From: Candidatus Scalindua sp.
GTDB taxonomy: Bacteria; Planctomycetota; Brocadiia; Brocadiales; Scalinduaceae
Length of the DNA: 32,000 bases
Direction: 5' to 3'
NCBI GenBank assembly: GCA_031316235.1
Contig: JALDRA010000001.1
Coordinates: 2,550,001-2,582,000, forward strand
The position numbers and the translations under genes were made by a program. Under the pieces are notes generated by a model. It did not search any database. It saw only the letters and a list, made by a program, of their open reading frames with translations, and was not told the origin of the DNA. Of the stretch, positions 412 to 24,063 are shown piece by piece (the first letter of the stretch is position 1; each line of letters begins with the position of its first letter).

Positions 412-1143
412 ATGAACAGTTTTGTAGCGGTATTCAAGAGAGAGTTGAAATCGTACTTTACGACACCTATTGCATATGTCTTTCTTGTTGTTTTCCTGTT
501 TTTTTCCGGTTACCTTACATTCAAGGACGGTTTTTTTGAAATGCGGCAGGCAGACATGGGTGTATTTTTTATGAATATACCTCTCCTGTTTGTTTTCCTG
601 GTTCCAGCAACATCAATGCGGCTGTGGGCAGAGGAACGCAGGATTGGTTCTATTGAGCTTCTCCTGACACTGCCGATTACCGTTACACAGGCGGTGCTGG
701 GAAAGTTTTTTTCTGCATGGCTTTTTCTTGTCATCGCTCTCGCCTTGACCTTTCCTATGGTTATTACTGTCTGTTTCCTGGGAGATCCGGATGTGAGCCT
801 GATAATTACGGGATACCTGGGAAGTGTCTTACTGGCAGGGGGATTTCTTTCGATCGGCTGTTTTTTTTCAATAGTCAGCAAGAACCAGGTCATCAGTTTT
901 GTTCTTTCGGTTGTTACCTGTGCAGTGCTTGTCTTTGCAGGGATGCCAACCACCTTAAACTATCTTTCAGCATTTTTACCTGCTGGTTTGGTCTCAGCAA
1001 TTGGAAATTTCAGTTTTCAGGTACACTTTGAATCCATCCAAAAAGGAATGCTGGAATTTAAAGACATCTCTTATTTCATATTGATGATCGTTGGCTGGAT
1101 TGTTGCTGGTACCTATATATTAGACGAAAGGAAGGCCTACTGA
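412..1143 (+). CDS. ABC-2 type transporter permease (GldF-like)
   Basis: 243-aa ORF with about 6 hydrophobic helices. ATG at 412 is preceded by GAGGAG. It sits between an ABC ATPase and a GldG-type protein. Its stop overlaps the next start (TGATG at 1141-1145). Confidence 0.75.
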   Translation: MNSFVAVFKRELKSYFTTPIAYVFLVVFLFFSGYLTFKDGFFEMRQADMGVFFMNIPLLFVFLVPATSMRLWAEERRIGSIELLLTLPITVTQAVLGKFFSAWLFLVIALALTFPMVITVCFLGDPDVSLIITGYLGSVLLAGGFLSIGCFFSIVSKNQVISFVLSVVTCAVLVFAGMPTTLNYLSAFLPAGLVSAIGNFSFQVHFESIQKGMLEFKDISYFILMIVGWIVAGTYILDERKAY

Positions 1144-3160: not shown

Positions 3161-4261
3161 ATGAGTGGTAAAAAGCTTATGATTTTAGGTATTGTTACGG
3201 CCTGTATGATTGCGTGGGCTGTAGTCCAGTCGCACGTAGCGAAAAGGTATAGTTCAGAGCCAACGGTTCCGGTATATGTCATACAAGGTCTAGACCCAAC
3301 AGATATCGGAACTATTATATTGGGAAGTGGAGAAGACTCTTTAACCCTGAAGCGGGAGGGCTCGAATTTTGCCGTGTTGAACAAAGATAATTATCCGGCT
3401 GTCACAAAAGAGATAAACACGCTTATTACCTCGTGCATGGATATCCGTACCGCTGAGCTCTACACAGAAAATCCGGCAAATCACAAGGATCTTGGCGTAA
3501 CGGAAGAAGAGGCAACTTATGTGGTGAAATTCCTGAAACCAGATTCCGATTTCCTCGCCGGTGTTATCATAGGGAAAAATAAGGAACAGAGCAGCGGCTC
3601 TTTTGTGAGGATGCTTCCGGGGGATAAGGTGTACGTTTCACTTGAACGCCCCTGGATTAAGGACCAGGTAATGGATTATATAGACACGGAGATACTTTCT
3701 TTAGCCCGTGAAGATATTGAGTCCGTTACCGTTCAATCTCCTGATGAAACCTATACTCTGCATGCAGAAAACGGTAGAGAAGGCATTGTGCTGGAAAATC
3801 TCCCCGCCGGGAAAAAAGTGAAAGCTAGCGAATCTGAAAAAGTCTTCACCGCTTTAACAAATCTGCAGTTCCAGGATGTTAAGAAAAAATCGGCTGCAGA
3901 CGGAGAGTTGTCCTTTGAGAGAAGGTTCATCTGTAAAGAGAAAAACTCTACAGTTTATACCATCAAGATTGCTCAAAGGGATAACAAGACCTATGTAATG
4001 TGTGAATGCGAATTTACCGATAATACACCCGTCAAAAAGGAAAAAGGTGTTGAATCAGAAGAAGAGTTAAAGAAAAAAGAGTCTAAACTGCTTGCAATGG
4101 AGGATGCAAAGGGGTTTCTGGTAAGACACAGCGGATGGATATACGAGATTCCTGAAAATGCTGCAAAGAATCTGACAATCAAACTGTCGGCATTATTAGT
4201 AGACGAAGAAGATATCTCTCAAGAGGAGAATGAAGCAGAAAAAAGTGATGGAGAAGGATAA
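3161..4261 (+). CDS. DUF4340-like membrane-anchored protein
   Basis: 366 aa with a single N-terminal TM (LMILGIVTACMIAWAVV), an acidic C-terminal tail, and the position directly after gldG that DUF4340 proteins usually occupy. AGGAG lies 8 nt upstream of the ATG. Confidence 0.55.
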   Translation: MSGKKLMILGIVTACMIAWAVVQSHVAKRYSSEPTVPVYVIQGLDPTDIGTIILGSGEDSLTLKREGSNFAVLNKDNYPAVTKEINTLITSCMDIRTAELYTENPANHKDLGVTEEEATYVVKFLKPDSDFLAGVIIGKNKEQSSGSFVRMLPGDKVYVSLERPWIKDQVMDYIDTEILSLAREDIESVTVQSPDETYTLHAENGREGIVLENLPAGKKVKASESEKVFTALTNLQFQDVKKKSAADGELSFERRFICKEKNSTVYTIKIAQRDNKTYVMCECEFTDNTPVKKEKGVESEEELKKKESKLLAMEDAKGFLVRHSGWIYEIPENAAKNLTIKLSALLVDEEDISQEENEAEKSDGEG

Positions 4262-4415
4262 ATCCTGAGATGTCAGAAAAAGCATATTTAGGTCCTGAAC
4301 AAAAACCCTGTGGCTGAACCGAAATACCCGGACACAAGGTGCTGATTCCGTAACGGTAACTTCCTGAAGCACTTGGGGGGAGTTGTTACGGCAATGCAAG
4401 AGTGAGAAGTTCTGC

Positions 4416-6170
4416 TCAACCACCGCTATCACTTGTTTTACAGCCTGTTTCTCCCCTTTGCTTAACCTTTAATACTCGAAAGCGATTCAGCGTTGCAGCC
4501 AATTCATGGTACCTGAACAGAGCCAGATCACCTCTTAAATCAGGTTTCGTGAGACAATCCAAACCTTCTTTACGTATATCTTCCATTACTAATGTGCAGA
4601 TCTCCCGTATACTTCGTCGGCCGTCGATATAATGACGGGCATAATGGATGGCATAACCGATTGCCCGCAACTGGCTGGGATGTAGAAGCTGTTCCACTGC
4701 ACCCACCTGAACCTGCTGTTCACCAAAATGGAGCAGCGTACGCCCTTCAGGTCTGATATAAATCTGTTTTTTTCCCTTCGAGGCATTCATACTGTCTGGC
4801 AGAGGAATACGGTGAATTTCTGAAATAGGGTTAACATCATGATCAGCTGAAAGCGGGTACTTTTTCACTATTTGACGAGACTCCAAAGTTAAATCATGTG
4901 GACGATACTCTATCATGGCAATTACCAGATCCGCCACAGGAAAGTAGTCACCACTTCCTCCCATTACGAGCACCGTCGAAATCCCCTTTTTTTCATAGAG
5001 CCCTCTCACATGCTCAATGAAAGGTGTTATTGGCTCCTTGTCTTTGGCAATGAGGGCCCTCATCCGTTCATCGCGGATCATAAAATTTGTTGCAAGTGTA
5101 TCTTCATCCAGGAGAAGGGTGCTTGCACCAACCTCAAATGCCTCCAGGATATTTGCTGCTTGAGACGTACTTCCGCTGGCATTTGCAGTTGAGAAAAACC
5201 TGGTTTCCTGATTAAACGGCAGATTAGAGATAAAGGGGTTTATATTCAAGTTTTGTATGCTGCGCCCATCCTCTGCCCTGATCTTGACGGCATCAGCATT
5301 CGTAATCACAAACTCTCGACCATCACCAGGAATGTGGTTATAGACCCCGTGTTCCAATGCATGCAGCAAGGTAGATTTACCGTGATATCCACCACCGACT
5401 ATCAGTGTTACTCCACAGGGAATTCCCATGCCTCTTATCGTTCCATGGTTAGGCAATTCAAAGTCAACTTTCAGAGATTCACAACTCTTAAAGAGAACGA
5501 GGCTTTTTGAACTTAATGGTCGTGAGTCAATTCCACTCGCCCGAGGAAGGACGGCATTATCAGCCACAAATCCGATCAAACCTCTGTTTGTCAGGCTGTT
5601 TCTGATAAACTCAGCATCCTCAACGGTCTCAATATGCTGATAGAGCCTCTCTTTTTCCAATCTCTGGTAATATAATGAATCATGAACGATTCGAGTGATA
5701 ACCTTCGAAAATATATATGCAGCTGCTTTACCAGCAATCCTGCGACCATACGCAGGGAGGCCAACCAGAAAGCGGGCCTCAATGCATCTATCTTTTATTA
5801 TCAGTGATGAACGTGTTAGGATCTCCTGCCCCGGCAGATCCATCTCGATAATACCACTCTTCCCTGAACCTTCTCTTTGATTATTATGCTTTCTTATTGC
5901 TTGACAAAAACTCCTGGCCAGGAAATCACATAATGCAATACTCCTCTGTCGGGTGTTATAGGTGTCATCAGGAAATTTGGCTGCGGTTATCGGAATCCTC
6001 ACCCTTACCCTGCTGGGGATTGCAAATGGGTCTCCTTGTATGTGATCAAGCCACAGTTCGTAATCCATAAACTGATACCCGCCTTTAATGGTTTTATAAG
6101 CAGGGTACGGCTTCCCCTCCATGGTGAGTACTTTCTTTATCAGTTCATCGTCCATTCGCATTATTGACAT
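4416..6170 (-). CDS. ABC-class ATPase (COG3044 / PF09818 ABC_ATPase family, MRB1590-like)
   Basis: The Walker-A context GVTLIVGGGYHGKSTLLHALEHGVYNHIPGDGREFVIT and LLLDEDTLATNFMIRD (Walker-B-like) are characteristic of this family. The maximal ORF starts at TTG 6188. ATG at 6170 (MSIMRMDD...) is preceded by GGAATGGAAAG and is the more likely start. Confidence 0.75.
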   Translation of the reverse strand: MSIMRMDDELIKKVLTMEGKPYPAYKTIKGGYQFMDYELWLDHIQGDPFAIPSRVRVRIPITAAKFPDDTYNTRQRSIALCDFLARSFCQAIRKHNNQREGSGKSGIIEMDLPGQEILTRSSLIIKDRCIEARFLVGLPAYGRRIAGKAAAYIFSKVITRIVHDSLYYQRLEKERLYQHIETVEDAEFIRNSLTNRGLIGFVADNAVLPRASGIDSRPLSSKSLVLFKSCESLKVDFELPNHGTIRGMGIPCGVTLIVGGGYHGKSTLLHALEHGVYNHIPGDGREFVITNADAVKIRAEDGRSIQNLNINPFISNLPFNQETRFFSTANASGSTSQAANILEAFEVGASTLLLDEDTLATNFMIRDERMRALIAKDKEPITPFIEHVRGLYEKKGISTVLVMGGSGDYFPVADLVIAMIEYRPHDLTLESRQIVKKYPLSADHDVNPISEIHRIPLPDSMNASKGKKQIYIRPEGRTLLHFGEQQVQVGAVEQLLHPSQLRAIGYAIHYARHYIDGRRSIREICTLVMEDIRKEGLDCLTKPDLRGDLALFRYHELAATLNRFRVLKVKQRGETGCKTSDSGG

Positions 6171-6193
6171 ATCTTTCCATTCCTTCAATATAA

Positions 6194-6333
6194 TATACTC
6201 ATCTCATACTGGATTTCGGATAAAATCCGAGATAAAATTGAGCAAGTACAAGTCCTCGGCGCTTTTTGTCCGGGGATACCTTCACCAAGATCTGGTTTCC
6301 GGTAAAACCGAAAACCAGATCGGTTTTAGTATA
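6194..6333 (-). repeat. MITE-like structured repeat, copy A (reverse orientation)
   Basis: The reverse complement aligns end to end with copy C (10561-10693), with 8 substitutions and one 7-nt indel by manual alignment. The ends are TATACT...GAGTATA. It contains a long hairpin GATCTGGTTTTCGG/CCGGAAACCAGATC and the conserved core TCTCGGATTTTATCCGAAATCCAGTAT. Confidence 0.85.
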
Positions 6334-6385
6334 ATATTATAGTGTAAAATACTCTCAGAGCGTCCTGTTTTATTACTTTCTACAA

Positions 6386-7057
6386 TTATAGAGATGCTGA
6401 AAGAAATGTTCCTTCTTGATGAGTAAAGGTGATTGACTGGAAATGGGCCCCGATAGAGAAAAAAGACTTTCCGTTTTTAACTATTTTTTTCGAGCTTATC
6501 ACCTCTGCTATTGCGCGGAAAAGGGAGCTGTCAATTTTAATTATTTCCTGAGTATCTAACACTTTCCTGCAGAGAAAACGGATGCCTTTAGGTGAGAGAT
6601 CTACCATTGTAGCTTCGTATAGACGTTCTGAAGCGGATGTAATGAAGTGAAACTTTTCAAGTTTCTGTGTACGAATAAGAGAGCGTTTACAGCTCTCTCT
6701 TGTACTATTCAGGTTCTCAGTCTGAAACAGGTTATTGTGACAGACACAGTTTTTGTCAGAATGGTCCTCGCGTGTAAGCGGTCTTTTGCAAAAAGTACAG
6801 AAAGCTCTTACTCTTTCTTTTGAGTAAAAAGTTTTTTTATAATGCTGAAACAGTTTCCTGTCATATTCAGCACGTTTTTTTTCATCACTCAAAGTCTGGA
6901 AGGCTTCATTGAGAACTTTAGCATTCCAGTGATCACCACCAAGATCAGGATGTTGTTTTAATTTGTGCAGGAGTGTAAGATAGCTGGTACGAATGATTTC
7001 AAAAGGGGCATCAGGCTGTACCTGCAGAATTCGGTAATAGTTGCGTCGATTGTCCAT
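6386..7057 (-). CDS. J-domain (DnaJ N-terminal) protein with a central Cys4 cluster and a C-terminal PilZ-like domain
   Basis: The N-terminus NYYRILQV...LLHKLKQHPDLGG...AEYDRKL is a J domain with the HPD motif (aa 36-38). CTFC-x13-CVC lies at aa 87-106. The C-terminus carries RSLIR (RxxxR, aa 125-129) and DLSPKG (DxSxxG, aa 153-158) 23 residues later, followed by the beta-rich pattern EIIKID...AIAEVI typical of PilZ. Confidence 0.7.
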   Translation of the reverse strand: MDNRRNYYRILQVQPDAPFEIIRTSYLTLLHKLKQHPDLGGDHWNAKVLNEAFQTLSDEKKRAEYDRKLFQHYKKTFYSKERVRAFCTFCKRPLTREDHSDKNCVCHNNLFQTENLNSTRESCKRSLIRTQKLEKFHFITSASERLYEATMVDLSPKGIRFLCRKVLDTQEIIKIDSSLFRAIAEVISSKKIVKNGKSFFSIGAHFQSITFTHQEGTFLSASL

Positions 7058-7084
7058 AGGTGGGTGCAGGTGAATGATTGGTAA

Positions 7085-7224
7085 TATACTAAAACTGATC
7101 TGGTTTTAGATTTCTCTAAAAACCAGATCCTGGTTAAGGGTATCCCCGGACAGAAAACGCCGAGGACTTTCCCCGCTCCGTTTTTTCTCGGATTTTATCC
7201 GAAATCCAGTATAAGAGAAGTATA
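7085..7224 (+). repeat. MITE-like structured repeat, copy B (forward orientation, most diverged)
   Basis: It has the same TATACT...AGTATA ends and the same 27-nt core (7187-7213) as copies A and C. The hairpin stem GATCTGGTTTT/AAAACCAGATC is retained with a completely different loop (AGATTTCTCT). Confidence 0.8.
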
Positions 7225-7436
7225 CAAAGTATTACTATGTTAACAGTAAGATCTCTGGAAAGAGTGCCACGGTATTTTCTCCAGAGACCTGAGCTAAGGT
7301 ATTATCGACACACAATCAGAAAACTTTACCTTGGCATATCTTCTTAAAATATCATACATCACTATTCTCATGAGCCCTGTTTGTGTTTACCGACACTCAC
7401 TGTTTTTTTACTGTACTTACATTTTTTATTACAACA

Positions 7437-7739
7437 TCAAACCTCGTAATCTGCAACTCTCCGTTCACTGCAGACGGCAGACATGAATGGCAGGAGTAAT
7501 TTGTGTTCCGGGTGATTTTGGTAACATCTCAGCGCCTCCGGTGACTCAAATTCTGAGTAGAGAACCAGATCAGCCGAGGAATCACTCTTTGAATAATCAC
7601 ACCCGACTTCCAGGCGGCAAAGACCGGGAACTTTTCCGTTTAATGACTCAAGCCTCTCCTTCGCAATTTTTGCATTCTCTTCCTGATTATTCCCTTCAGC
7701 ATATTTATGTAATTTCCACATCACTATGTGTTTTATCAT
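7437..7739 (-). CDS. Dabb family stress-responsive alpha/beta-barrel protein
   Basis: 100 aa. The pattern MIKHIVMWKL...LEVGCDYS...DLVLYSEFESPEALRCYQNHPEH is the classical Dabb (PF07876) pattern. Confidence 0.75.
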   Translation of the reverse strand: MIKHIVMWKLHKYAEGNNQEENAKIAKERLESLNGKVPGLCRLEVGCDYSKSDSSADLVLYSEFESPEALRCYQNHPEHKLLLPFMSAVCSERRVADYEV

Positions 7740-7939
7740 GATTTACGGCCTTTCTCCACAATTCCCGCAATTAATCCTGCATTGAAGCATTTGATTAAAG
7801 AAGCGAACGAGCTTGTTTCTCTTTTTTACTGTTACACCAAAAACATCAAAAAAACCGCACTTCTCAAACCTGGAATCCTTTTCCGACTCGTTCGAGTCAG
7901 TAGTGTCTATTTTTTCACATTTATTACCGTTACCCTTTT

Positions 7940-9871
7940 TTATCCATTCCGTCCGGTTCTCCCTCTTCGTTGTGTTTTCAACCGTTGTGGTGTCCTCTTA
8001 TTGACTACTCCCTCCCGATTATGTAAGTCTCTTTTGGCAGAGCCCAGGAACCGTTTCAGCAAATCTGTTTTTTTTGCTTTCGTGAGCCTCTTTTTTATCC
8101 ATTCGTGATTCTCTTTCTTGTACCAGAAAAAGAAACGATGCTGATCTCTTCTCTCTTGTATTGATTTAGGAGTATAGTATCTTTTTAAGGTATAAGGATG
8201 ATAGCCGGAATAATAGATTACGGTAGCAACTGTCATTGGTGTGGGTGTAAAATCCTGGACGTGCTCAAGTTTAAAACCAAGTTCTTTCGTTTCAACTGCA
8301 AGGTTTGCCATATCTTCATCGCTGCAGCCAGGATGACTTGATATGAAGTAAGGTACAAGCTGCTGATTAAGGGAATAGTGTCTATCGATACGATCAAACA
8401 GTTTCTTAAATTCCTTAAAATGTTCAAATGATGGTTTTCTCATTAATTTGAGTGTATTTGCAGAGGTATGTTCCGGTGCAACTTTAAGTCTACCGGAAAC
8501 ATGGCGAGTCACAAGCTGTACCATATAATCATAAATGGAAGAATCGGCTTTGGTATTATAACTTTTTGTTATTAGATCATAACGAACTCCGCTTCCGACA
8601 AATGCTTTTTTCACTTTCGGATGATTGTCTACTTTTTTATAGATTTCGATTAATTGGGAATGGTTTGTGTCGAGATTTCCACATATTACCGGATAAATAC
8701 AGGAAGGAGCTACACATCTGTCGCAAACCTTTTGTTCCTTTCCCTTCATTTTATACATATTTGCAGACGGACCTCCGAGGTCAGAAATGTAGCCTTTAAA
8801 GTCTGGCATATTTACGATCTTGTCTACTTCATTCAGTATGGATTTTTGTGAGCGGCTTGCAATGAATTTACCTTGATGGGCTGAAATAGTACAAAAACTG
8901 CATCCTCCAAAACAGCCCCGATGCATGTTTATCGAAAATTTTATCATTTCATAGGCAGGAATACCACCGCGTTTTTTATATTTGGGATGAGGAAACCTTG
9001 TATAAGGCAAGTCAAAAGAGGCATCGATCTCCCTCTCTTTCATTGTTGGAAAAGGAGGATTAATTATCACGGATTTCCCCGAAATATCTTGTATAATCCG
9101 TTTTGCAGAGACCTTGTTTGATTCCTGCTCTATCTGTTTGAAGTTTGCGGCAAAGGATTTTTTGTCTGCTAAACAGGTCTCATGAGGCTGTATTGCAGTG
9201 TCCTGCCAGTGTTTGTTTTTCTGAATACCGCTGCTTTGGTCACGGATATAACCTGTCTGCCTGACCATTGTCAATTGATGGAAGGGTACCCCTTTTTTCA
9301 AAAGTTTGAGAATTTCTCTGATGGGCTGTTCTCCCATTCCGTACACCAATAAATCAGCCCCGCTTGTTTCAAGAATTGATGGCATCAATCTGTTTGACCA
9401 ATAATCGTAGTGCGTTACCCTCCTTAAAGAGGTCTCTATGCCTCCAATCACAACCGGAACATCAGGATAGAGAGATTTCAAAATCCTGGTGTAGGTGGTA
9501 ACAGCATAATCAGGACGATGACCAGCATTTCCTCCAGGAGTATATGCGTCTGTAGAACGAAGTCTCCTGTTCGCAGTGTAATGGCTCACCATGGAATCCA
9601 TGCAGCCAGAGGTTACTCCAAAGAAATATCTGGGCCTGCCAAATTTCTTAAAATCACGCAGATCATCTCTCCAATTTGGTTGCGGTACAATAGCAACCTT
9701 ATAGCCCTCACTTTCGATGATTCTGCCAATTACGGCAGCTCCAAATGAAGGATGGTCAACATATGCATCTCCTGATATGAGAATTACATCAAGTTCTTCC
9801 CAATGCCGCAATTCTGCCTCCTTTCTCGTAGTAGGAAGCCATTTGGTTATTTCCGGGTGTTTTTCTTTCAT
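7940..9871 (-). CDS. ygiQ: YgiQ-family (UPF0313) radical SAM protein
   Basis: The N-terminal LPTTRKE...LDVILISGDAYVDHPSFGAAVIGRIIESEGYKVAIVPQPNW is diagnostic of the YgiQ N-domain. The radical-SAM cluster motif is HRGCFGGCSFCTI (CxxxCxxC). It ends in a basic tail (KRTPQRLKTQRRGRTGRNG). Confidence 0.85.
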   Translation of the reverse strand: MKEKHPEITKWLPTTRKEAELRHWEELDVILISGDAYVDHPSFGAAVIGRIIESEGYKVAIVPQPNWRDDLRDFKKFGRPRYFFGVTSGCMDSMVSHYTANRRLRSTDAYTPGGNAGHRPDYAVTTYTRILKSLYPDVPVVIGGIETSLRRVTHYDYWSNRLMPSILETSGADLLVYGMGEQPIREILKLLKKGVPFHQLTMVRQTGYIRDQSSGIQKNKHWQDTAIQPHETCLADKKSFAANFKQIEQESNKVSAKRIIQDISGKSVIINPPFPTMKEREIDASFDLPYTRFPHPKYKKRGGIPAYEMIKFSINMHRGCFGGCSFCTISAHQGKFIASRSQKSILNEVDKIVNMPDFKGYISDLGGPSANMYKMKGKEQKVCDRCVAPSCIYPVICGNLDTNHSQLIEIYKKVDNHPKVKKAFVGSGVRYDLITKSYNTKADSSIYDYMVQLVTRHVSGRLKVAPEHTSANTLKLMRKPSFEHFKEFKKLFDRIDRHYSLNQQLVPYFISSHPGCSDEDMANLAVETKELGFKLEHVQDFTPTPMTVATVIYYSGYHPYTLKRYYTPKSIQERRDQHRFFFWYKKENHEWIKKRLTKAKKTDLLKRFLGSAKRDLHNREGVVNKRTPQRLKTQRRGRTGRNG

Positions 9872-10380
9872 CTCTTTTTCGATCCTGTCATCCTCCCTGT
9901 TGATTCACTGACAGTTTTGCTTCTTCCCTTCATATATTTCTGATAACGCTCTATGCCCACACACTCACTTCCAACGGGGCACTTCTCTATACAGCTTTCA
10001 GCTAATTCACGCTGAATCGTCTCTCCACAACTTTCACAGGAATACTCATTTTCGAAACCGGCTACTGATGCAGTACCCAACTTTCTGCAGTGTGGACACG
10101 TTACATCTATGATCTCCACCCTCTTTATCCTTTCAGCACCAGGACATTGAAAAACAGCGGGTTTTTTAAAGCCCGCTGTTGAAGCAGGAGAAACCTTTTT
10201 TATTTTTGCAATAGTTTGGGTGGCTAAGATACGAAGAGGCATTCGTTTCTCTTTTCTTAAGAATTCCTGCAGTGCTTTCATCGCTTCATGACTGCCTTTT
10301 CCGACCCTGCCAATCTCTCCGAGAGCCTCCACCACCATCTCTGAGTTCTCGTGATTCAATTTCTCCACTAGTGCTTTCAT
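9868..10380 (-). CDS. Small HEAT-like repeat / zinc-ribbon protein (hypothetical)
   Basis: 170 aa. The N-terminus EMVVEALGEIGRVG...AMKALQEFL...LRILATQTIAKI resembles PBS-lyase/HEAT-like repeats. CPHC-x16-CESC forms a zinc-ribbon signature, followed by CIEKCPVGSEC. Its TGA overlaps the ygiQ ATG (ATGA at 9868-9871). Confidence 0.5.
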   Translation of the reverse strand: MKALVEKLNHENSEMVVEALGEIGRVGKGSHEAMKALQEFLRKEKRMPLRILATQTIAKIKKVSPASTAGFKKPAVFQCPGAERIKRVEIIDVTCPHCRKLGTASVAGFENEYSCESCGETIQRELAESCIEKCPVGSECVGIERYQKYMKGRSKTVSESTGRMTGSKKR

Positions 10381-10560
10381 ATTCGTTACAGTCTAATTAC
10401 CTTCCGCTGTGCCATCACCGCCAAAAACCTGCCGCTCTCCCCGGAAGAATCCGTTTGAACGAAACAAGGTTCATTTGAACCTGAAGAGATTGAAAGGTTG
10501 CTATCCTTAGAGGGGTTTTACTTCATCGGGCATGTACTTAAAACGGGCTGTTGAATGTAA

Positions 10561-10693
10561 TATACTAAAACCGATTTGGTTTTACCGGAAACCAAGTCCT
10601 GGTGAAGGTATTCCCGGACAAAAAGCACCGAGGACTTGTACTCGTTCAATTTTATCTCGGATTTTATCCGAAATCCAGTATGAGATGAGTATA
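10561..10693 (+). repeat. MITE-like structured repeat, copy C (forward orientation)
   Basis: Near-identical to the reverse complement of copy A. The hairpin is GATTTGGTTT/AAACCAAGTC with a compensated stem change. It lies in the 366-bp gap between the batE-like stop and the HEAT-protein start. Confidence 0.85.
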
Positions 10694-10746
10694 CTATCAG
10701 TGAGTTGGAAATGATAAAAGAGGTTTTCAGCAGTGTTAATGTAAAG

Positions 10747-11607
10747 CTATATTTTTCCTACTTTGTCCTTCGGTATCCATCCCCGCTTAAACTCGGTATC
10801 TTTCTCCTTGTTTTCTTCGAGAGTATCCTCTATCTCAACATAAACGAACACCTTATACCATCCGTCTCTTTGCTCTTCTATCTTCAGCTCTGCGCCTTCG
10901 TGTATCTCAAATTTGGGTTCATACTCTTCTCCCGGTCCATACCTTATTTTACATTCTTTAGCTATGACTACACCTTTTTCATAGACATGTTCAGAATAAA
11001 TTTTTATTCCAAGAGACAGGACAAGGATAAAGAGGCTGATTGCAAATGCTATACTGGTATTTTTCAGCCATCGATGCGGTAAAAAAATCAATGACACGAT
11101 TGAGGCTATAAACGCGAAATAGATGTATAGTGTGAGGGCCGTAATTTCATTGAGATTAAGGAAAAAATACCAGAAGCATAATGTCTTGAGAAATTCCGGC
11201 AGAGGCCTTGTGCTCTCTTTATCTTCAAAATCGTCCTTCAATAAATCAATATTTGCCTTAATGTCTGCATTTCTCGGGAGCATTTTTTCTGCCTTACGGT
11301 AGGCAACTATTGATTTGCCAGGCATTCCCTGTCGGTAATACGAATTTCCCAGGTTGTAGTATATCTGGCCATTCTCAAACCTCGACTGTATCAACTGGTC
11401 ATAGAGCTGCGTTGCGTGCTGAAACCTTGCCAATGCATCTTTTTCCTTTTTTGCAGCCATTTCCTTTCGGGCAGCGTCATATTCGTTGTTTGCCTGAAAG
11501 AAAAGATCTACCGCCTCTTTATGGGAAAGATTTTCAGCAAATGCATCATACATGAAAAGGGAAATAATGAGAAGAGATAAAAACAAGGGTATCGATTTAT
11601 ATTTCAT
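10747..11607 (-). CDS. batE: BatE-like TPR + SH3 domain protein
   Basis: It has a signal peptide (IPLFLSLLIISLFMYDAFA), TPR-like segments (YYNLGNSYYRQGMPGKSIVAYRKAEKMLP), several TM helices and a C-terminal SH3b-like domain (GWYKVFV...GWIPKDKVGKI). It is the last gene of a Bat-type cluster, and its start overlaps the batD stop (ATGA). Confidence 0.65.
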   Translation of the reverse strand: MKYKSIPLFLSLLIISLFMYDAFAENLSHKEAVDLFFQANNEYDAARKEMAAKKEKDALARFQHATQLYDQLIQSRFENGQIYYNLGNSYYRQGMPGKSIVAYRKAEKMLPRNADIKANIDLLKDDFEDKESTRPLPEFLKTLCFWYFFLNLNEITALTLYIYFAFIASIVSLIFLPHRWLKNTSIAFAISLFILVLSLGIKIYSEHVYEKGVVIAKECKIRYGPGEEYEPKFEIHEGAELKIEEQRDGWYKVFVYVEIEDTLEENKEKDTEFKRGWIPKDKVGKI

Positions 11608-13445
11608 AGCTGTTTTTCTAAAAGTTCAATTACTCTTTCTGCTCTATTGGAAACGCTTTCCATCTGCGCTCTTGTATTATTGGCAATAGAAAATCTCGCA
11701 TGGTCACACAACTCAAGACACTCTTTTAATTCCTCAATTGTTTTGGATGAAACTCCACACCTGTCCAATGTATGCGATATATTGTCGCTTGTGACAGACG
11801 CTGGCGGTATGTTGAGTTTATCGGCAACAAGTTCCGTCAAGGTTTTTGCAAGCATTGAATAAAAGTCGGTGGATTTTTCGCTGTGAATAAGGTGTTTTGT
11901 GTTCAAAAGCTGGCTTTTTGCCTGTGACAGTGCCCTTCTTTTCCTCGCATAACTGGTATCTGTTTGAAGCCGTTCTCTATGCCTTTGTAAAAAGAGGCAG
12001 AAGAAAACAAGAAGTATTGGTGAAAAGAAAATAAAAGCCAGCAATACCGGCCTCTTCAAAATACCCTTACCCTGGTTAGTGAATGAGTCTATATTTGTCA
12101 TTATGGGCAGGATGTCTTTAGTCAATATTTTTACCTCTCCTTTAGTTTTTTCACTATCATTTAAGGTAAAGCGAAGGGGGGTTTCCGTTTCAGGGTTGTT
12201 TACCGAAATAGGTATTGCTTCGTAAGTTATGTTTTGGTATTTTTTCATTACAGGGTCAAAATAGCTGAATGATACCCTTGGTGTCGCATTCACATTTTCG
12301 TGTTGGGGTTCGATTACCTTGTTAAACACTTTTTCACCCGTAATCCCCTCTTTTTTGTCAGTAATTGCAGTGCTCGCTTCAGTAGAATAGAATTTAAAAT
12401 CTTCTTTTTCTTCAGGAATCAGAGCAGGTTCTCCCAATGTTTTTATGTTTCCTTTCCCTGCAATCTTAATCGTGACTGTTATGGGATCTCCTACGTTTAC
12501 TTTGGTGGGTTTTACGGAAACATCCATCGTGAAATTTCCAACTGCACCGGCAAAGTCAACAGGTTTGTCTGTTTCCGGCAAGGCCTTGATCACTAACTTA
12601 ATCGGGTTTGTATCTCTTTCCACGGGGTATCTATAGTTCTTTCTTCCAAGGAACTCATCAAATAATGAGTCTCCATAAGAATCTTCGAAAGGGTCCCAGC
12701 TGCGTGACGATTGCTGTCTGACCAGGATATTACACTTGAATTTTGCCGGGGGTATCTCTAAGGTGTCGGAAACGAGGGGGAAAAGGGCGGTCTGCAATTC
12801 TATTACACTATAGAGTATTCCATCCCTGACCTCTTCGTAACGTCTCTCATCACCAAGCCTTTCAGCAAGAAAGTTCTTGGTTGAGGGCGGGACATAATCG
12901 AGATTTTCAACGGGTAATCCTTTCTGGAAAAAAAACTTAAAAGACAAAACTATCTGTTCGTAAATGTAAGCTTCTTTTTTGTCAGTTGTGAGCTCGATGA
13001 ATAATCTTTTGTTGATGTCGAGGTCCTCACTCCTCTCTTTTCTCCTCTCAACAGGTTTTCTTTCGAGTACCTCAATCTCGACAGGATTCGATGTATAGGT
13101 GCTGCCTTTGTATTTCAGTGTTGCAGGGGGTATTGTGAATTTTCCTATTCCTTTTGGTACGAGCATGTACGTGAATCCGCGATTAACTGAAACAACGTTG
13201 TTGATTATTCTTGTTTGGGTGGTGACACTTGGGCCATATTTCAAAGAGAAGCCTTCAAGCTCAGGTAGCTTTGGCTGGTCTGTGTCAAATGCACCATGGA
13301 TCTCAATCGTTAAGCGGACATGATTACCGATTTCAATCCTGGTATTATCAACGCTCGCGGTAAGTCTCAGCTCCTCTGCGTAAACCTTCCCAAAGTGGCC
13401 AACAAGTAAAAAAAATGCAATAACATATATGAAAAAAATCTTCAT
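11604..13445 (-). CDS. batD: BatD-like oxygen-tolerance protein
   Basis: It has a large exported protein, then a TM (PVLLAFIFFSPILLVFFCLFL) and a cytoplasmic helical tail, which is the BatD layout. The maximal ORF starts at TTG 13496. ATG 13445 (MKIFFIYVIAFFLLVGHFGKVYA, a signal peptide) is the probable start. Confidence 0.7.
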   Translation of the reverse strand: MKIFFIYVIAFFLLVGHFGKVYAEELRLTASVDNTRIEIGNHVRLTIEIHGAFDTDQPKLPELEGFSLKYGPSVTTQTRIINNVVSVNRGFTYMLVPKGIGKFTIPPATLKYKGSTYTSNPVEIEVLERKPVERRKERSEDLDINKRLFIELTTDKKEAYIYEQIVLSFKFFFQKGLPVENLDYVPPSTKNFLAERLGDERRYEEVRDGILYSVIELQTALFPLVSDTLEIPPAKFKCNILVRQQSSRSWDPFEDSYGDSLFDEFLGRKNYRYPVERDTNPIKLVIKALPETDKPVDFAGAVGNFTMDVSVKPTKVNVGDPITVTIKIAGKGNIKTLGEPALIPEEKEDFKFYSTEASTAITDKKEGITGEKVFNKVIEPQHENVNATPRVSFSYFDPVMKKYQNITYEAIPISVNNPETETPLRFTLNDSEKTKGEVKILTKDILPIMTNIDSFTNQGKGILKRPVLLAFIFFSPILLVFFCLFLQRHRERLQTDTSYARKRRALSQAKSQLLNTKHLIHSEKSTDFYSMLAKTLTELVADKLNIPPASVTSDNISHTLDRCGVSSKTIEELKECLELCDHARFSIANNTRAQMESVSNRAERVIELLEKQL

Positions 13446-13620
13446 GGTATAAATTTTTTGTCTGACAGTTTTCCTCTCCAGGTAAATCTCTGTCAAAGGA
13501 TCATTTGAGAATCAATGATAAATAAAGGTAATTATAAACGAGAATGCACAAAAGTAAATTTGAATATCAGGATTTTTGATTTGTAAGAATAAAGCCTTAA
13601 ACTCTCCTGATAGCAATTCT

Positions 13621-14499
13621 TTACCAATCCTTAAGGATGCCGTACGTTGCTGATTTATCTTCCTTTTCCGGTAAATCACGTGCACTCTTTTCTGATTGTT
13701 TCATAGCGTCCAGTATTCTTTCTGCTTCTTCCTTAGACATTTCTCTTTTTTCATGAGGCTGTGGAGCTGGAGGTTTATCTGTCTCGTTTTCTTGTGAAGG
13801 TTTTTGTCCGTTTTTTTGTTCTTCCTCTTTATTCTCATCCTTTTCCTGTTGATTTTGATCCTGTTCCTGCTGTTCCTGTTTCTTTTCCTGCGGCTTTTGA
13901 TCCTGCTCCTGCTTCTCCTGTTCCTGGTCTTCTCCCTTCTCTTCCTGGTTCTCCTCTTTGTCCTGCTCCTCTTTTTCCTTGTCTTTCTCTTCTTGTTCCT
14001 GTCTCTCCTTCTGTTCTTTCTGCATCTCTTCTATCTTCTTTTCTACAAATTCGTAATTAAACTTTGCGTCTTCTCTTAATGCATCAAGCTCTTCGTCATG
14101 AATATTTTGATGCTCTCCTGAAAGTCCAATTGCCTGTTTATAGAAATCGAGAGATTCTTTTAATTTTCCCTGCTTATAGAGGGTGTTACCCATATTGTAA
14201 TTCCCTTTTGCCTTCAGGAGTATGTCATCGCTCTTTATGGCATCTTGATAAGATTTTTCAGCTTCTGGGAATTTACCTTTTTTATAATGGGTATTTGCGA
14301 TGTTAAACTTTAACTGATCTGATTCCGGTACAAAGGATTGTGCATCAGTAAACCTGCTTGCCGCTTCATCAAATTTGTTTTCATTGTAAAGAATGATTCC
14401 TTCTTCATTGTGTTCTGCTGCAGGATCAATCCAGCCTAATGATAGTAAGCAGATGATGAAAACTGTAAAGGCTTTCAGCTTTGTATTAAACATTTCCAT
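13621..14499 (-). CDS. batC: BatC-like TPR protein with a long E/Q/K-rich low-complexity region
   Basis: It has a signal peptide, TPR motifs (NIANTHYKKGKFPEAEKSYQDAI; YNMGNTLYKQGKLKESLDFYKQAI), and then about 80 aa of EQK-rich sequence. It sits between batB and batD. Confidence 0.65.
   Translation of the reverse strand: MEMFNTKLKAFTVFIICLLSLGWIDPAAEHNEEGIILYNENKFDEAASRFTDAQSFVPESDQLKFNIANTHYKKGKFPEAEKSYQDAIKSDDILLKAKGNYNMGNTLYKQGKLKESLDFYKQAIGLSGEHQNIHDEELDALREDAKFNYEFVEKKIEEMQKEQKERQEQEEKDKEKEEQDKEENQEEKGEDQEQEKQEQDQKPQEKKQEQQEQDQNQQEKDENKEEEQKNGQKPSQENETDKPPAPQPHEKREMSKEEAERILDAMKQSEKSARDLPEKEDKSATYGILKDW
13795..14037 (-). repeat. Low-complexity coding tract (poly E/Q/K/D) inside batC
   Basis: The plus strand is a pyrimidine-rich run of CTC/CTT/CTG/TTC units that encodes ...EEMQKEQKERQEQEEKDKEKEEQDKEENQEEKGEDQEQEKQEQDQKPQEKKQEQQEQDQNQQEKDENKEEEQK... 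on the minus strand. Confidence 0.8.
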
Positions 14500-19096: not shown

Positions 19097-20353
19097 CTAT
19101 TCATATCTCAGTGTTTGTATCGGGTCTAACCGTGCGGCTTTTTGTGCCGGGTATATACTGAAGAGGAGGCTGCACATGATAGAGATGCCGGCAATTATGA
19201 TTATGCTTTTTGGATCAATAGCAGTTGGTATTTCATTGAAATAATACACTTCCGGTGGAAAAGGCCTCCATCCTGAGTACCTGTATACGGTGGTTTCTAT
19301 CCAATTGATTCTGTTTATAAACACAAGACCCAGACCCGTGCCGATTGCGGAACCGAAGATGCCGATAAGGAGACCGTTAAGGAGGAATATCTGCATGATA
19401 CCCCAGGTAGTAGCCCCTAATGCCTTGAGTGTACCGATATCCTTGGTTTTTTCAAAGACAATCATTGTTAAAATTGCGAGGATGTTGAAACCTGCTACAA
19501 TTATGATAAAAAATAAAATAAAAGCCATGACCCGTTTTTCCAAAGCAACAGCTTTCAGGAAGGTTCCCCGCGCCTCTTCCCAGGTCTGTACATGAAAACC
19601 GAAACCGAGTTCTTTCTTGATGCGATCGCGAACCAGAGGTGCGTTTTTGTAACTATCTAACCGTACACTAATTGCGGTAATAGAATCTTGTGAGCCTGCT
19701 AATCCTTGAGCGATTTTTATAGGTATGTAAATGTAATTTTTATCAACATCATACATGCCGGATTTAACTTTTCCCGTGAGAATAAATGACTTTACGCTTA
19801 TCTTGTCCCACCCCTTGATTGCAACAAGAACAATTTTTTCTCCATTGTTTACAAAACTTTCCGGGTTGGCTTTATAGTCACCGAGATTTGTTCGCAGTAG
19901 TTCGATTCCACCAAAAGCACTTGGTGTATTTTTATCACCATGGAGGAGCAGTAAATCTTCTGGCTTGTTATTAAATTCCTCCAGATACAGATCCAGGTCA
20001 CCGACCTTTGATTCCAAGATAGGGTCTATGCCTCTGAAATAGACGAATTCTTTTGTACCTCTGATGTTAATGAGTGCGGGGCCTTCGATATAGGGCGCGC
20101 ACGCCTCAACATGATCAAGTGATTGGATTTTTTTTAAGACTTCTTCATAATTATTCAGGCCATACATACCCATTTTCGACACAATGATATGAGCTAGTGT
20201 ACCTCTGATTTTTGATCGCAGCTCCTTGTCGAAACCGCTCATTACTGATAAAACCACAATGAGCGTCATAACACCAACTGCGACCCCGGCAACTGCAAAA
20301 AAAGCAATTTTCTTTCTTCGTAAGTATCTAAAGCTTATAAAAAATTTGTACAT
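19097..20353 (-). CDS. LolC/LolE-family (FtsX/MacB-type) ABC transporter permease
   Basis: The opening MYKFFISFRYLRRKK...SVMSGFDKELRSKIRG is typical of LolC/E. It also has a periplasmic domain between TM1 and TM2 and a C-terminal FtsX-like 3-TM bundle with ...DIGTLKALGAT... and ...AARLDPIQTLRYE. Confidence 0.75.
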   Translation of the reverse strand: MYKFFISFRYLRRKKIAFFAVAGVAVGVMTLIVVLSVMSGFDKELRSKIRGTLAHIIVSKMGMYGLNNYEEVLKKIQSLDHVEACAPYIEGPALINIRGTKEFVYFRGIDPILESKVGDLDLYLEEFNNKPEDLLLLHGDKNTPSAFGGIELLRTNLGDYKANPESFVNNGEKIVLVAIKGWDKISVKSFILTGKVKSGMYDVDKNYIYIPIKIAQGLAGSQDSITAISVRLDSYKNAPLVRDRIKKELGFGFHVQTWEEARGTFLKAVALEKRVMAFILFFIIIVAGFNILAILTMIVFEKTKDIGTLKALGATTWGIMQIFLLNGLLIGIFGSAIGTGLGLVFINRINWIETTVYRYSGWRPFPPEVYYFNEIPTAIDPKSIIIIAGISIMCSLLFSIYPAQKAARLDPIQTLRYE

Positions 20354-22026: not shown

Positions 22027-22045
22027 TTGCGCATTGTTTTTTCTG

Positions 22046-22118
22046 GCTGGCGTAGCTCAATTGGCAGAGTAGCTGTCTTGTAAACAGCAGGTTGTGGGTT
22101 CGAGTCCCACCGCTAGCT
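22046..22118 (+). tRNA. tRNA-Thr (anticodon UGU)
   Basis: Manual cloverleaf: acceptor GCTGGCG/CGCTAGC, anticodon stem GCTGT/ACAGC with loop CTTGTAA, T-arm GTGGG-TTCGAGT-CCCAC. No encoded CCA. Confidence 0.9.
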
Positions 22119-22161
22119 TTATACTGTCTATTATCTCTCTCTGGAGAGTAGTCAGAAAAGT

Positions 22162-22246
22162 GGGGAGGTACCCGAGTGGCCAAAGGGGACAGACTGTAAA
22201 TCTGTTGGCGTAGCCTTCGGAGGTTCGAATCCTCCTCTCCCCACCA
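22162..22246 (+). tRNA. tRNA-Tyr (anticodon GUA), long variable arm, CCA encoded
   Basis: GGGGAGG...CCCGAGTGGCCAAAGGGG...loop CTGTAAA...variable arm...GGAGGTTCGAATCCTCC...TCTCCCC-A-CCA. Closely resembles bacterial tRNA-Tyr. Confidence 0.9.
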
Positions 22247-22280
22247 TATGTATCAGGATATATCAGGATTATTGCAAAGT

Positions 22281-22351
22281 GCGGGCGTAGCTTAATGGTA
22301 AAGCCCTAGCCTTCCAAGCTAGTTATGTGGGTTCGATTCCCGTCGCCCGCT
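22281..22351 (+). tRNA. tRNA-Gly (anticodon UCC)
   Basis: Acceptor GCGGGCG/CGCCCGC, anticodon stem CTAGC/GCTAG with loop CTTCCAA, T-loop TTCGATT. Confidence 0.9.
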
Positions 22352-22407
22352 TTTTATGCCACGATTCCATTAATTCGAGGATATATTTTTTTTATTTAAA
22401 AAAAGTT

Positions 22408-22435
22408 TTGACTTTTTTTTTAAAAATGATAGATT
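22408..22435 (+). promoter_or_regulatory. Candidate internal promoter (UP-like A/T tract, -35 TTGACT, extended -10 TGaTAGATT)
   Basis: TTGACT at 22408-22413, 16-nt spacer, TG at 22427-22428, TAGATT at 22430-22435. An A/T-rich tract lies at 22381-22404. It sits in the unusually long 148-nt spacer before tRNA-Thr(GGU)/tuf. Confidence 0.35.
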
Positions 22436-22499
22436 ACTAGGCCTGCTGTTTTTGGTGGTTTGGTATTGCATTTGCCTGTGGTTCTGGACCCGGGCTTAT

Positions 22500-23886: not shown

Positions 23887-23908
23887 TTATTGGGTTGGAA
23901 GCTGGATA

Positions 23909-24058: not shown

Positions 24059-24063
24059 GAAGA

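What the first reader, a model, noticed from the sequence alone, without database searches (positions are those of the whole stretch)
6194..7224. Inverted pair of a ~140-bp MITE-like element brackets the J-domain/PilZ gene
Copy A (6194-6333, reverse) and copy B (7085-7224, forward) belong to the same repeat family and face each other. Between them lie only the 672-bp J-domain/PilZ ORF and short spacers. Both copies carry the ends TATACT...(G)AGTATA. The left end (TATACT-N9-CTGGTTTT) and the reverse complement of the right end (TATACT-N9-CTGGATTT) form an imperfect terminal inverted repeat of about 25 bp. All three copies are flanked so that a TA target duplication is possible, though it cannot be separated from the TIR itself. 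No transposase is present, so the elements look non-autonomous. The arrangement has three possible consequences. (i) It resembles a composite cassette that could have mobilised the gene. (ii) Recombination between the inverted copies would flip the gene relative to the downstream COG3044 ATPase. (iii) Copy A ends only about 20 nt from the likely ATPase start codon, so it supplies that gene's 5' UTR or promoter-proximal region.
Basis: seen in the sequence. Interest (0 to 1): 0.7.

Follow-up and report, generated by a model that had tools for sequence, protein, structure and literature searches.

The report
Small modular repeat family in Scalindua
The two facing 140-bp repeats around the J-domain gene are real copies of a previously undescribed, hairpin-rich, MITE/BOX-like interspersed repeat family of marine anammox bacteria (Scalinduaceae), but the gene between them sits in its ancestral place, so the pair is two separate intergenic insertions rather than a gene-moving cassette.

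Summary
Copies A (6194-6333, -), B (7085-7224, +) and C (10561-10693, +) share 85-95% identity and sharp ends, TATACT...GTATA.

The family occurs in several Candidatus Scalindua MAGs and in 66 marine metagenome contigs, at about 45 distinct sites. I found no match in Rfam or the searched literature.

The elements are modular:
- a left hairpin module (L);
- 0-2 copies of a 27-nt unit (M), which also occurs alone elsewhere;
- a right palindromic module (R).

Length ranges from about 106 to 170 nt. The ends form an imperfect 26-bp terminal inverted repeat (18/26 matches). A sister subfamily has a perfect 20-bp one. No target duplication exists outside the terminal TA/TATA. No transposase or long autonomous copy was found in about 490 kb of held sequence.

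Copies are intergenic and lie in either orientation relative to genes. At orthologous sites they diverge less than their flanks (4.0% vs 9.8%).

The composite-cassette idea is not supported. A distant Scalinduaceae genome has the J-domain gene between the same neighbours in the same orientation, with no element in the J-ATPase spacer. Inversion is untested and looks unlikely, because A and B share only a 27-nt exact run. The geometry of claim (iii) holds: A ends 23 nt before the ATPase ATG. No promoter signal was found.

Verdict: a new member of a known kind; modest interest.

The parts
6194..6333 (-). Copy A of the repeat (140 nt). Modules on the - strand: L 6333-6277, M 6276-6250, R 6249-6194.
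   Evidence: nhmmer E=1.8e-48 and 5e-34; alignment; M core located.
7085..7224 (+). Copy B of the repeat (140 nt). Modules: L 7085-7142, M 7143-7169, R 7170-7224. It is the most diverged of the three copies. The tip of its hairpin 1 carries compensated changes (AGA/TCT instead of CGG/CCG).
10561..10693 (+). Copy C of the repeat (133 nt; hairpin 1 is shortened by 7 nt). Modules: L 10561-10610, M 10611-10637, R 10638-10693. It is 95% identical to A.
6386..7057 (-). J-domain (DnaJ) protein gene lying between A and B. It is not part of the element and sits in its ancestral syntenic position.
   Evidence: Pfam DnaJ 3e-11; 879 homologues across phyla; synteny with L103.
4416..6170 (-). ABC_ATPase (PF09818/COG3044-type) gene. 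Its start is the ATG at 6170, 23 nt downstream of the R end of A.
   Evidence: Pfam 1.3e-118; tblastn of the L103 orthologue aligns residues 1-575 to 6170-4446; alignment.
7437..7739 (-). Dabb (stress-responsive A/B barrel) gene, upstream neighbour of B. Relative to L103, the window lacks a B12-binding radical SAM gene between Dabb and the J gene.
   Evidence: Pfam 4e-22; synteny.

Best explanation
A, B and C are three separate insertions of a non-autonomous, MITE-type small interspersed repeat. The family appears specific to Scalinduaceae (marine anammox Planctomycetota).

Architecture. Each element is a mosaic:
- L module: TATACTAAAACCGATYTGGTTTT-loop-AAAACCARATC..., a 14-17-bp hairpin.
- M module: 0-2 tandem copies of a 27-nt GC-rich unit, TCCCCGGAC-N8-CCGAGGACTT. 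This unit is itself an independent REP-like repeat.
- R module: TACTC...GAGTATA, a long imperfect palindrome.

Mobilisation (inferred). The two ends form a bipartite imperfect terminal inverted repeat (TATACT plus TGGNTTTCGG). The elements are most likely moved in trans by a DDE transposase that targets TA or TATA in AT-rich intergenic DNA. That would explain why the invariant terminal TA cannot be separated from a 2-bp duplication.

After insertion (inferred). Copies persist for long periods. They exchange modules, gaining or losing M and changing hairpin tips, probably by recombination or gene conversion between copies and by slippage.

The A/B pair. The pair around the J-domain gene reflects a high local copy density, roughly one copy per 10 kb. 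It is not a functional unit. Any effect on neighbouring genes (A lying in the ATPase leader, B and C read in antisense orientation by flanking transcripts) is a by-product. Such effects could include mRNA hairpins that alter stability or attenuation.

Shown: family membership, architecture, ends, distribution, synteny and conservation. Inferred: the transposase type, the TA duplication and recombinational module exchange.
For: (1) Dispersed multicopy family.
- An 18-mer scan of 185,579 species genomes gave real matches only in three Candidatus Scalindua MAGs. Each 8-kb locus held two copies.
- A 22-mer scan of metagenomes gave 66 contigs, about 45 distinct flanking contexts.
- AMX11 locus L099 has 3 copies in 20.7 kb. 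The window has 3 in 32 kb.

(2) Sharp common termini, TATACT...GTATA, with unrelated flanks.

(3) Terminal inverted repeats.
- The left end and the reverse-complemented right end match at 18 of 26 positions (read).
- L060's R module is a perfect 24-bp palindrome.
- The L103 subfamily has a perfect 20-nt TIR, TATACCCATCACGAATTGGT.

(4) No coding capacity. The elements are intergenic in nearly all cases and show no orientation bias relative to genes: 13 co-directional and 11 antisense in tandem contexts, 6 divergent, 2 convergent.

(5) Modularity.
- Orthologous sites differ by exactly one or two M units or by the hairpin tip.
- M occurs solo or in tandem at 13 distinct sites outside elements in the held loci; 2 further fuzzy matches were not M.

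(6) J gene synteny is conserved without element A in L103.

(7) No Rfam family matches, so no described RNA family accounts for it.
Against: - No autonomous partner, solo TIR pair or transposase was found in about 490 kb of held sequence.
- No empty site was recovered, so insertion polymorphism and the TA duplication are unproven.
- Every orthologous comparison available showed the element present on both sides, i.e. old insertions.
- Orthologous copies diverge less than their flanks: 4.0% vs 9.8%, Fisher p=1.5e-7 on six independent pairs. This is not expected of neutral junk and points to selection or concerted evolution.
- Non-Watson-Crick stem positions in hairpin 1 are G.T 33 vs A.C 5 cells. 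This hints that one specific strand folds, which a purely double-strand DDE mechanism does not predict.
Confidence: 0.65

Rival explanations
1. Composite transposon or cassette: the two inverted copies acted together to bring the J-domain gene into this locus.
For: Geometry only. The two copies face each other with their R ends outward, and a single gene lies between them.
Against: - L103, a distant Scalinduaceae genome, has the J gene between the Dabb side and the ABC_ATPase in the same order and orientation. Its J-ATPase spacer holds no element.
- The J-domain protein family is conserved across many phyla at 40-50% identity.
- In other Scalindua contigs the J gene has either no flanking copies (L108) or one copy in the other orientation (L099).
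- With 3 copies among about 30 intergenic regions, two in adjacent spacers is not improbable. My rough estimate is about 0.2.
Confidence: 0.03
2. Invertible segment: homologous recombination between the inverted copies A/B (or A/C) flips the intervening genes as a switch.
For: Inverted repeats exist. A/B are 85% identical and 751 bp apart. A/C are 95% identical with a 48-nt exact run and 4227 bp apart.
Against: - The longest exact A/B run is 27 nt, at the lower limit for RecA-dependent exchange (established knowledge for E. coli).
- No site-specific recombinase gene is nearby (Pfam of neighbours).
- The observed orientation equals the ancestral one.
- No read-level data are available.
Confidence: 0.05
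3. Domesticated cis-acting or RNA element: the repeats are retained because the folded transcript, or a protein-bound DNA form, does something for the host. Possibilities include mRNA stabilisation, RNase processing, attenuation or nucleoid-protein binding. This would work like BOX, ERIC or Correia elements and is not exclusive of a MITE origin.
For: - Orthologous copies evolve about 2.4-fold slower than their flanks.
- Hairpin 1 is paired in 93.7% of cells, with 3 pairs showing compensated changes. Its covariation score was reached by 0 of 500 shuffles.
- G.T exceeds A.C by 33 to 5.
- Fold z-scores are -3.4 to -5.8.
- Elements sit within tens of nt of gene starts and stops.
Against: - Both orientations relative to genes are about equally common. 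A strand-specific RNA role in read-through transcripts is therefore not general.
- There is no excess of promoter-like or terminator-like sites.
- The covariation is weak: the number of pairs with compensated changes does not exceed shuffles (273/500). Part of the G.T excess is shared ancestry.
- Gene conversion among copies would also slow apparent divergence.
Confidence: 0.2
4. Single-strand (HUH/Y1) mobilisation: the elements are REP/BIME-like units or IS200/IS605-derived palindrome-associated elements. A RAYT or TnpA would recognise the subterminal hairpins on one DNA strand and insert next to a TATA(C) target without duplication.
For: - Subterminal hairpins lie near both ends.
- There is no TSD outside the conserved ends.
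- G.T-over-A.C asymmetry suggests one folding strand.
- The M unit behaves like a REP: a short GC-rich palindrome found solo, in tandem, or embedded.
Against: - Clear terminal inverted repeats exist, perfect over 20 nt in the L103 subfamily. These are not a feature of IS200/IS605 ends.
- Copies within 4.5 kb of one another have opposite orientations (A vs B and C; also L099). This argues against the strong replication-strand bias of that family.
- No GTAG-type REP head motif is present.
- No Y1 transposase gene was seen in the held loci.
Confidence: 0.08

Closest known systems
BOX elements of Streptococcus pneumoniae (boxA-boxB(n)-boxC)
   Same: Both are composite small interspersed repeats. 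Fixed terminal modules flank a variable number of a short middle module, which varies between strains at the same locus. Both are under 200 bp, highly base-paired, intergenic, and have no transposase of their own (PMC3049150; compare).
   Different: There is no sequence similarity and the phylum differs. The middle unit here is 27 nt (boxB is about 45 nt), reaches only 0-2 copies, and also occurs alone elsewhere. The termini are TATACT/AGTATA.
Correia elements (CREE/NEMIS) of Neisseria
   Same: Both are about 100-160 bp and delimited by about 26-bp inverted repeats (PMC3049150). From my own knowledge: Correia ends begin with TATA and carry a TA duplication, long and short forms differ by an internal segment, no cognate transposase has been identified, and they are often co-transcribed with neighbouring genes.
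   Different: The sequence and host are unrelated. The TIR here is much less perfect (18/26). RNase III processing and promoter creation, known for Correia elements, are untested here.
RUP / IS630-type MITEs (TA-duplicating, mobilised in trans)
   Same: Both are small, AT-rich, bounded by TIRs and carry an invariant terminal TA compatible with a TA duplication. A trans mobilising IS is proposed on the basis of TIR similarity (PMC3049150).
   Different: No IS with matching ends has been found here, and the TA duplication is unproven.
REP/BIME mosaics of enterobacteria and pseudomonads
   Same: Both show mosaic combinations of short palindromic units. The M unit behaves like a REP, occurring solo, in tandem or embedded.
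   Different: The whole element has fixed polarity (L-(M)n-R) and defined TIR ends. No GTAG head motif is present, and RAYT association is unknown.

Membership tests
MITE (miniature inverted-repeat transposable element) | Small (<~300 bp), no coding capacity | tested here: met
   Full copies are 106-170 nt. Only chance ORFs overlap them.
MITE (miniature inverted-repeat transposable element) | Terminal inverted repeats | tested here: met
   The two ends match at 18 of 26 positions. A perfect 20-nt TIR occurs in the L103 subfamily.
MITE (miniature inverted-repeat transposable element) | Target site duplication | tested here: inconclusive
   No direct repeat lies outside the ends at 45 sites. The invariant terminal TA/TATA could be a TSD but cannot be separated from the TIR. 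No empty site was recovered.
MITE (miniature inverted-repeat transposable element) | Many dispersed copies in unrelated contexts | tested here: met
   About 45 distinct flanks in metagenomes. Two or three copies per 8-32 kb in the L023, L025, L032 and L099 loci and the window, and two sister-subfamily copies in L103.
MITE (miniature inverted-repeat transposable element) | Cognate autonomous IS/transposase with matching TIRs | tested here: not met
   None was found in about 490 kb of held sequence.
MITE (miniature inverted-repeat transposable element) | Presence/absence polymorphism at orthologous sites | tested here: inconclusive
   All alignable orthologous pairs carry the element. The L103 J-ATPase spacer lacks it but is too diverged to serve as an empty site.
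Composite transposon carrying the J-domain gene | Cargo absent from the ancestral locus, or the unit found in different contexts | tested here: not met
   The J gene lies between the same neighbours in L103, where the J-ATPase spacer holds no counterpart of A and only a sister-subfamily copy sits upstream of J.
BOX-type modular repeat | Fixed end modules with a variable number of tandem middle modules that varies at orthologous loci | tested here: met
   L-(M)0-2-R. Orthologous comparisons: L073 vs L036, L035 vs L058 and L044, L038 vs L049. This is a resemblance of architecture, not homology.
REP/BIME (RAYT-associated) | 20-40-nt palindromes with a conserved GTAG-type head and an associated RAYT gene | tested here: not met
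   No such head motif appears in the L, M or R consensus. A RAYT gene could not be searched for genome-wide.
IS200/IS605-derived palindrome-associated element | No TIRs; strand-biased orientation; insertion 3' of a fixed tetra- or pentanucleotide | tested here: not met
   TIRs are present. Mixed orientations occur within 4.5 kb. A fixed TATA at the left end is compatible with the target rule but not diagnostic.
Any Rfam RNA family | Covariance-model match at or near the gathering score | tested here: not met
   Only tRNAs pass the gathering threshold. The best hit on an element is 19.7 bits against a gathering score of 50, E=6.5.

The most novel reading that the evidence does not exclude
The repeats may be more than passive MITEs. 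They could be a Scalinduaceae-wide set of constrained, single-strand-folding elements, acting as RNA or ssDNA of defined polarity. Supporting hints are that they evolve more slowly than their flanks, keep their hairpins through compensated and G.T-tolerant changes, and swap a REP-like middle unit. They might be mobilised by an as yet unknown mechanism with no identifiable transposase, or recruited as cis-regulatory hairpins next to many genes in a slow-growing, uncultured anammox lineage.
Probability: 0.15. Interest if true: 0.55.

Novelty: new member of a known kind. Interest (0 to 1): 0.3.

Why it matters
- Small interspersed repeats break MAG assemblies, mark synteny breakpoints and can alter expression of adjacent genes.
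- A defined family for Scalindua gives a marker for strain typing and assembly checking in marine anammox bacteria, which cannot be grown in pure culture.
- It is a further example, from a phylum where none was described in the literature I searched, of the puzzling BOX/Correia/ERIC class: modular, conserved and with no obvious transposase.
- For this locus specifically, the J-domain/PilZ gene should not be annotated as mobile cargo.

Tried and rejected
- Rfam at gathering threshold and at E<=10 on the elements found nothing.
- blastn of copy A against PLSDB plasmids gave no match.
- A viral-contig scan with the left end gave four hits. All are the same 20-nt match inside a 451-aa ORF, so it is chance.
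- The look-up of encoding contigs with the window's own J protein and with P0024 found nothing on record, so the source genome could not be extended.
- Search for an autonomous partner:
  - regex for paired or solo TIRs in all loci;
  - clustering of 401 ORFs to find multicopy proteins;
  - the representatives were not scanned against Pfam; read by eye, their sequences resemble ordinary metabolic proteins such as a radical SAM enzyme and an M16-type peptidase.
  No transposase was found.
- Empty-site search: the J-ATPase spacer and the region downstream of rSAM_N, window vs L103, are too diverged to align.
- RNAalifold on the full 48-sequence alignment recovered only part of hairpin 1, because modular gaps disrupt the alignment. 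I therefore tested hairpin 1 on its own.
- Terminator and promoter roles: the consensus scans show no excess over shuffles. The R module looks like a bidirectional terminator only in the metagenome subfamily, not in the window copies.
- From memory, the right end GATGTGTATA coincides with 10 nt of the Tn5 mosaic end. There the motif is internal rather than terminal, so I treated it as coincidence.
Full report
**Observation**

The repeat finder reports the inverted arms 6194-6243/7175-7224, 6250-6289/7130-7169 and 6279-6336/7082-7139. It also reports a 123-nt, 93% inverted match between 6190-6312 and 10575-10697. A three-way alignment gives sharp common ends, TATACT...GAGTATA, with unrelated flanks.

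nhmmer places the copies at 6194-6333 (-), 7085-7224 (+) and 10561-10693 (+), with E-values of 1e-26 to 1e-48. Pairwise identities and longest exact runs are:
- A-B: 85%, 27 nt.
- A-C: 95%, 48 nt.
- B-C: 84%, 27 nt.

All three copies are intergenic, and all neighbouring genes are on the - strand:
- ABC_ATPase (PF09818), 4416-6170.
- DnaJ-domain protein, 6386-7057.
- Dabb, 7437-7739.
- Radical SAM, 7940-9871.
- A 170-aa ORF, 9868-10380.
- TPR protein, 10747-11607.

The rest of the window is core chromosome, including a tRNA cluster, an ORF at the tuf position and a 1225-aa ORF at the rpoB position (gene names inferred from layout, not scanned).

**Where else the element occurs**

An exact 18-mer from the R module was scanned against one genome per species (185,579 species). 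It gave 32 loci, about the number expected by chance. Only three of them, all Candidatus Scalindua / Scalinduaceae MAGs, match the whole element. Each of those 8-kb loci carries a second copy that lacks the 18-mer.

A 22-mer from the left end found 66 marine or sediment metagenome contigs. After removing orthologous duplicates these represent about 45 different flanking contexts. Some of these contigs encode proteins 61-74% identical to, and syntenic with, Scalindua loci.

The AMX11 locus fetched through the J protein has three copies in 20.7 kb. L103 has two copies of a sister subfamily in 20.7 kb. L108 has none in 9.3 kb.

A rough density of one copy per 10 kb in some genomes follows from these numbers. 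The sample is small and partly biased, so whole-genome counts could not be made.

No Rfam family matches. No paper in the searchable library links Scalindua or anammox bacteria with MITEs or palindromic repeats of this kind.

**Anatomy**

Reading all copies from their left ends and aligning 48 distinct full copies shows a mosaic of three modules.
- Module L is TATACTAAAACCGATYTGGTTTT, then a variable tip, then AAAACCARATCYTGGTTGCAGTTA. It forms a 14-17-bp hairpin.
- Module M is TCCCCGGAC-N8-CCGAGGACTT (27 nt). It is present 0, 1 or 2 times in tandem.
- Module R runs from TACTC to GAGTATA and is a long imperfect palindrome. It comes in two sequence subtypes. In L060 it is a perfect 24-bp palindrome.

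Full copies are 106-170 nt. Deletion derivatives of about 60-70 nt also exist (L074 and L086).

The left end and the reverse complement of the right end match at 18 of 26 positions (TATACT, then TGGNTTTCGG). The sister subfamily in L103 has a perfect 20-nt TIR, TATACCCATCACGAATTGGT.

Short GC-rich hairpins are nested at various points in some copies.

M also occurs outside the elements, alone or in tandem, at 13 distinct sites in the held loci. In the window it is found only inside A, B and C. M is therefore an independent REP-like unit.

**Behaviour**

- Target sites. At 45 unique sites there is no direct repeat flanking the conserved ends. The flanks are A/T-rich: position -1 is A in 29 of 45, and +1 is A in 27 of 45. 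A 2-bp TA or 4-bp TATA duplication hidden in the invariant termini is possible but unproven.
- Orientation relative to genes. Using a simple ORF model, copies lie between tandem genes in both orientations (13 and 11), between divergent genes (6) and rarely between convergent genes (2).
- Module variation at orthologous sites. Orthologous sites in related metagenomic lineages all carry the element but differ by whole modules:
  - L073 has one M, while L036, L072 and L043 have none.
  - L035 has two M, while L058 and L044 have none.
  - L038 has one M and a longer hairpin tip than L049.
- Rate of change. Over six independent orthologous pairs, substitutions are 4.0% in the element, 7.8% in the adjacent 50 nt and 10.3% in the next 250 nt. 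Fisher p is 1.5e-7 against all flanks and 0.004 against the near flanks.
- Hairpin 1. It is paired in 93.7% of cells, three pairs show compensated changes, and its covariation score was reached by 0 of 500 shuffles. The number of pairs with compensated changes does not exceed shuffles.
- Strand asymmetry. Non-Watson-Crick cells in hairpin 1 are G.T 33 against A.C 5. Part of this is shared ancestry, so I treat it as a hint that one strand is the folding strand, not as proof.
- Fold energies. Both strands of all three window copies fold better than shuffles, with z-scores of -2.9 to -5.8.

(i) Composite cassette. L103, from a 2.28-Mb Scalinduaceae contig, carries these genes in the same order and relative orientation as the window:
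1. ABC transporter genes
2. DUF4340
3. ABC_ATPase
4. the J gene
5. Dabb
6. rSAM_N

It has two extra genes: a B12-binding radical SAM gene between J and Dabb, and a BNR protein between Dabb and rSAM_N. Its 226-nt J-ATPase spacer is unrelated to element A. A sister-subfamily copy sits upstream of J in L103, in the same relative orientation as B, but about 80 nt from the start codon rather than 27.

The J-domain protein family has 879 homologues, spread over many phyla at 40-50% identity. The gene is therefore ancestral at this position and was not imported by the repeats.

(ii) Inversion. Nothing here can test it directly. The short exact matches, the lack of a recombinase gene and the ancestral orientation make a programmed switch unlikely. 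A/C is a better substrate than A/B. B/C are direct repeats that could delete 7225-10560.

(iii) Leader or promoter. The ATPase ATG at 6170 is fixed by homology, so A ends 23 nt upstream of it. If J and the ATPase are co-transcribed, or if transcription starts upstream of A, the whole element lies in the ATPase leader in its forward polarity.

The consensus scan finds no promoter-like site inside A and no excess of promoter-like or terminator-like sites in 5900-11000. The terminal hexamer TATACT is itself a 5/6 match to TATAAT. It pairs with flank-supplied -35-like hexamers at both ends of C. This is suggestive only.

**Mechanism**

The defined TIR-bearing ends, the perfect-TIR sister subfamily, the lack of coding capacity, the intergenic AT-rich targets and the many unrelated contexts together favour a MITE moved in trans by a DDE transposase. 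The invariant TA suggests a TA-duplicating enzyme.

The module swaps at orthologous sites and the low divergence are best explained by recombination or gene conversion among copies plus slippage of M. Purifying selection on a folded form cannot be excluded.

I found no autonomous partner or transposase in about 490 kb of held sequence. I also found no empty site. These are the main gaps.

An HUH/ssDNA mechanism is the main mechanistic rival. The TIRs and the mixed local orientations argue against it. The strand asymmetry and the REP-like M unit argue for it.

**Comparison with known systems**

- In architecture the closest analogue is the pneumococcal BOX element: boxA, a variable number of boxB units, then boxC. 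It varies at orthologous loci and the middle module folds independently (PMC3049150).
- In size, in its roughly 26-bp TIRs, in its TATA-starting ends and in the absence of a known transposase, it resembles the Correia element. The size and TIR figures are from PMC3049150; the other details are from my own knowledge.
- It is not homologous in sequence to either.

It meets the MITE criteria that could be tested, except for a demonstrable TSD, a cognate IS and insertion polymorphism.

**Verdict**

The element is a mosaic rather than a simple 140-bp unit. The cassette reading is refuted by synteny, and the switch and promoter readings remain unsupported. This is a new, apparently undescribed member of a well-known class of bacterial small interspersed repeats, so interest is modest.

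Noticed in passing
L037:5973-5996, L045:1513-1563, L058:7261-7284, L062:287-310, L048:2183-2206, L090:633-656 and others: The 24-27-nt M unit (CCCCGGAC-N8-CCGAGGAC) occurs on its own or in short tandem arrays outside any L-R element. It therefore behaves as an independent REP-like mini-repeat. In the window it occurs only inside A, B and C.
   Followed up: partly
L025:2740-2905 and 6222-6364; L099:9607-9776 and 19214-19352; L032:73-237; L068:419-540; L039:~930-965 (- strand, next to the truncated copy at 965-1011); L048/L054/L067: Short GC-rich hairpins of 20-30 nt (e.g. CCCGTCCGAACGGTTGACAGGCCGGGCGGGC and GCCTGCCCGACATGTC..CAGGCGGGCAG) are nested at different points in some elements: in the loop of hairpin 1, after hairpin 1, inside M and inside R. 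They appear to be a second family of tiny palindromic insertions. None matched the one pattern tried in the window.
   Followed up: partly
L103:3107-3288 and L103:9712-9920: A sister subfamily of about 182-210 nt has a perfect 20-nt TIR, TATACCCATCACGAATTGGT...ACCAATTCGTGATGGGTATA. One of its copies contains an M unit. It was found only in this Scalinduaceae genome. One copy sits upstream of the J-domain gene, in the same relative orientation as B.
   Followed up: partly
window 7058-7436 and 7740-7939 vs L103:7809-9674 and 3973-7095: Relative to L103, the window lacks a B12-binding radical SAM gene between the J gene and Dabb, and a 1040-aa BNR-repeat gene between Dabb and rSAM_N. Synteny also ends near copy C. 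Elements B and C therefore lie at or near synteny breakpoints. Whether the repeats caused these rearrangements is unknown.
   Followed up: partly
window 13802-14022: A CT-rich run of imperfect 9-21-nt periodic repeats (12 copies in the repeat finder family D1) lies inside the 292-aa TPR ORF 13621-14499 (-). It should encode a low-complexity acidic/Gln/Lys-rich stretch. The neighbouring ORF 11604-13496 has a BatD domain, so this may be a Bat-type aerotolerance operon.
   Followed up: no
L106:5623-5642 (also L104, L105, L107): Four related IMG/VR viral contigs share an exact 20-nt match to the element's left end (TATACTAAAACCGATTTGGA). The match lies inside a 451-aa ORF and no further similarity exists, so I judged it a chance match.
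   Followed up: yes
window 22045-24141: A tRNA cluster (Thr-Tyr-Gly-Thr), a 400-aa ORF at the tuf position and tRNA-Trp are followed by ORFs laid out like a secE-nusG-rplKAJL-rpoB block. This is an ordinary core-genome context, and no copy of the repeat occurs in that half of the window. The gene names are inferred from the layout; these ORFs were not scanned.
   Followed up: no
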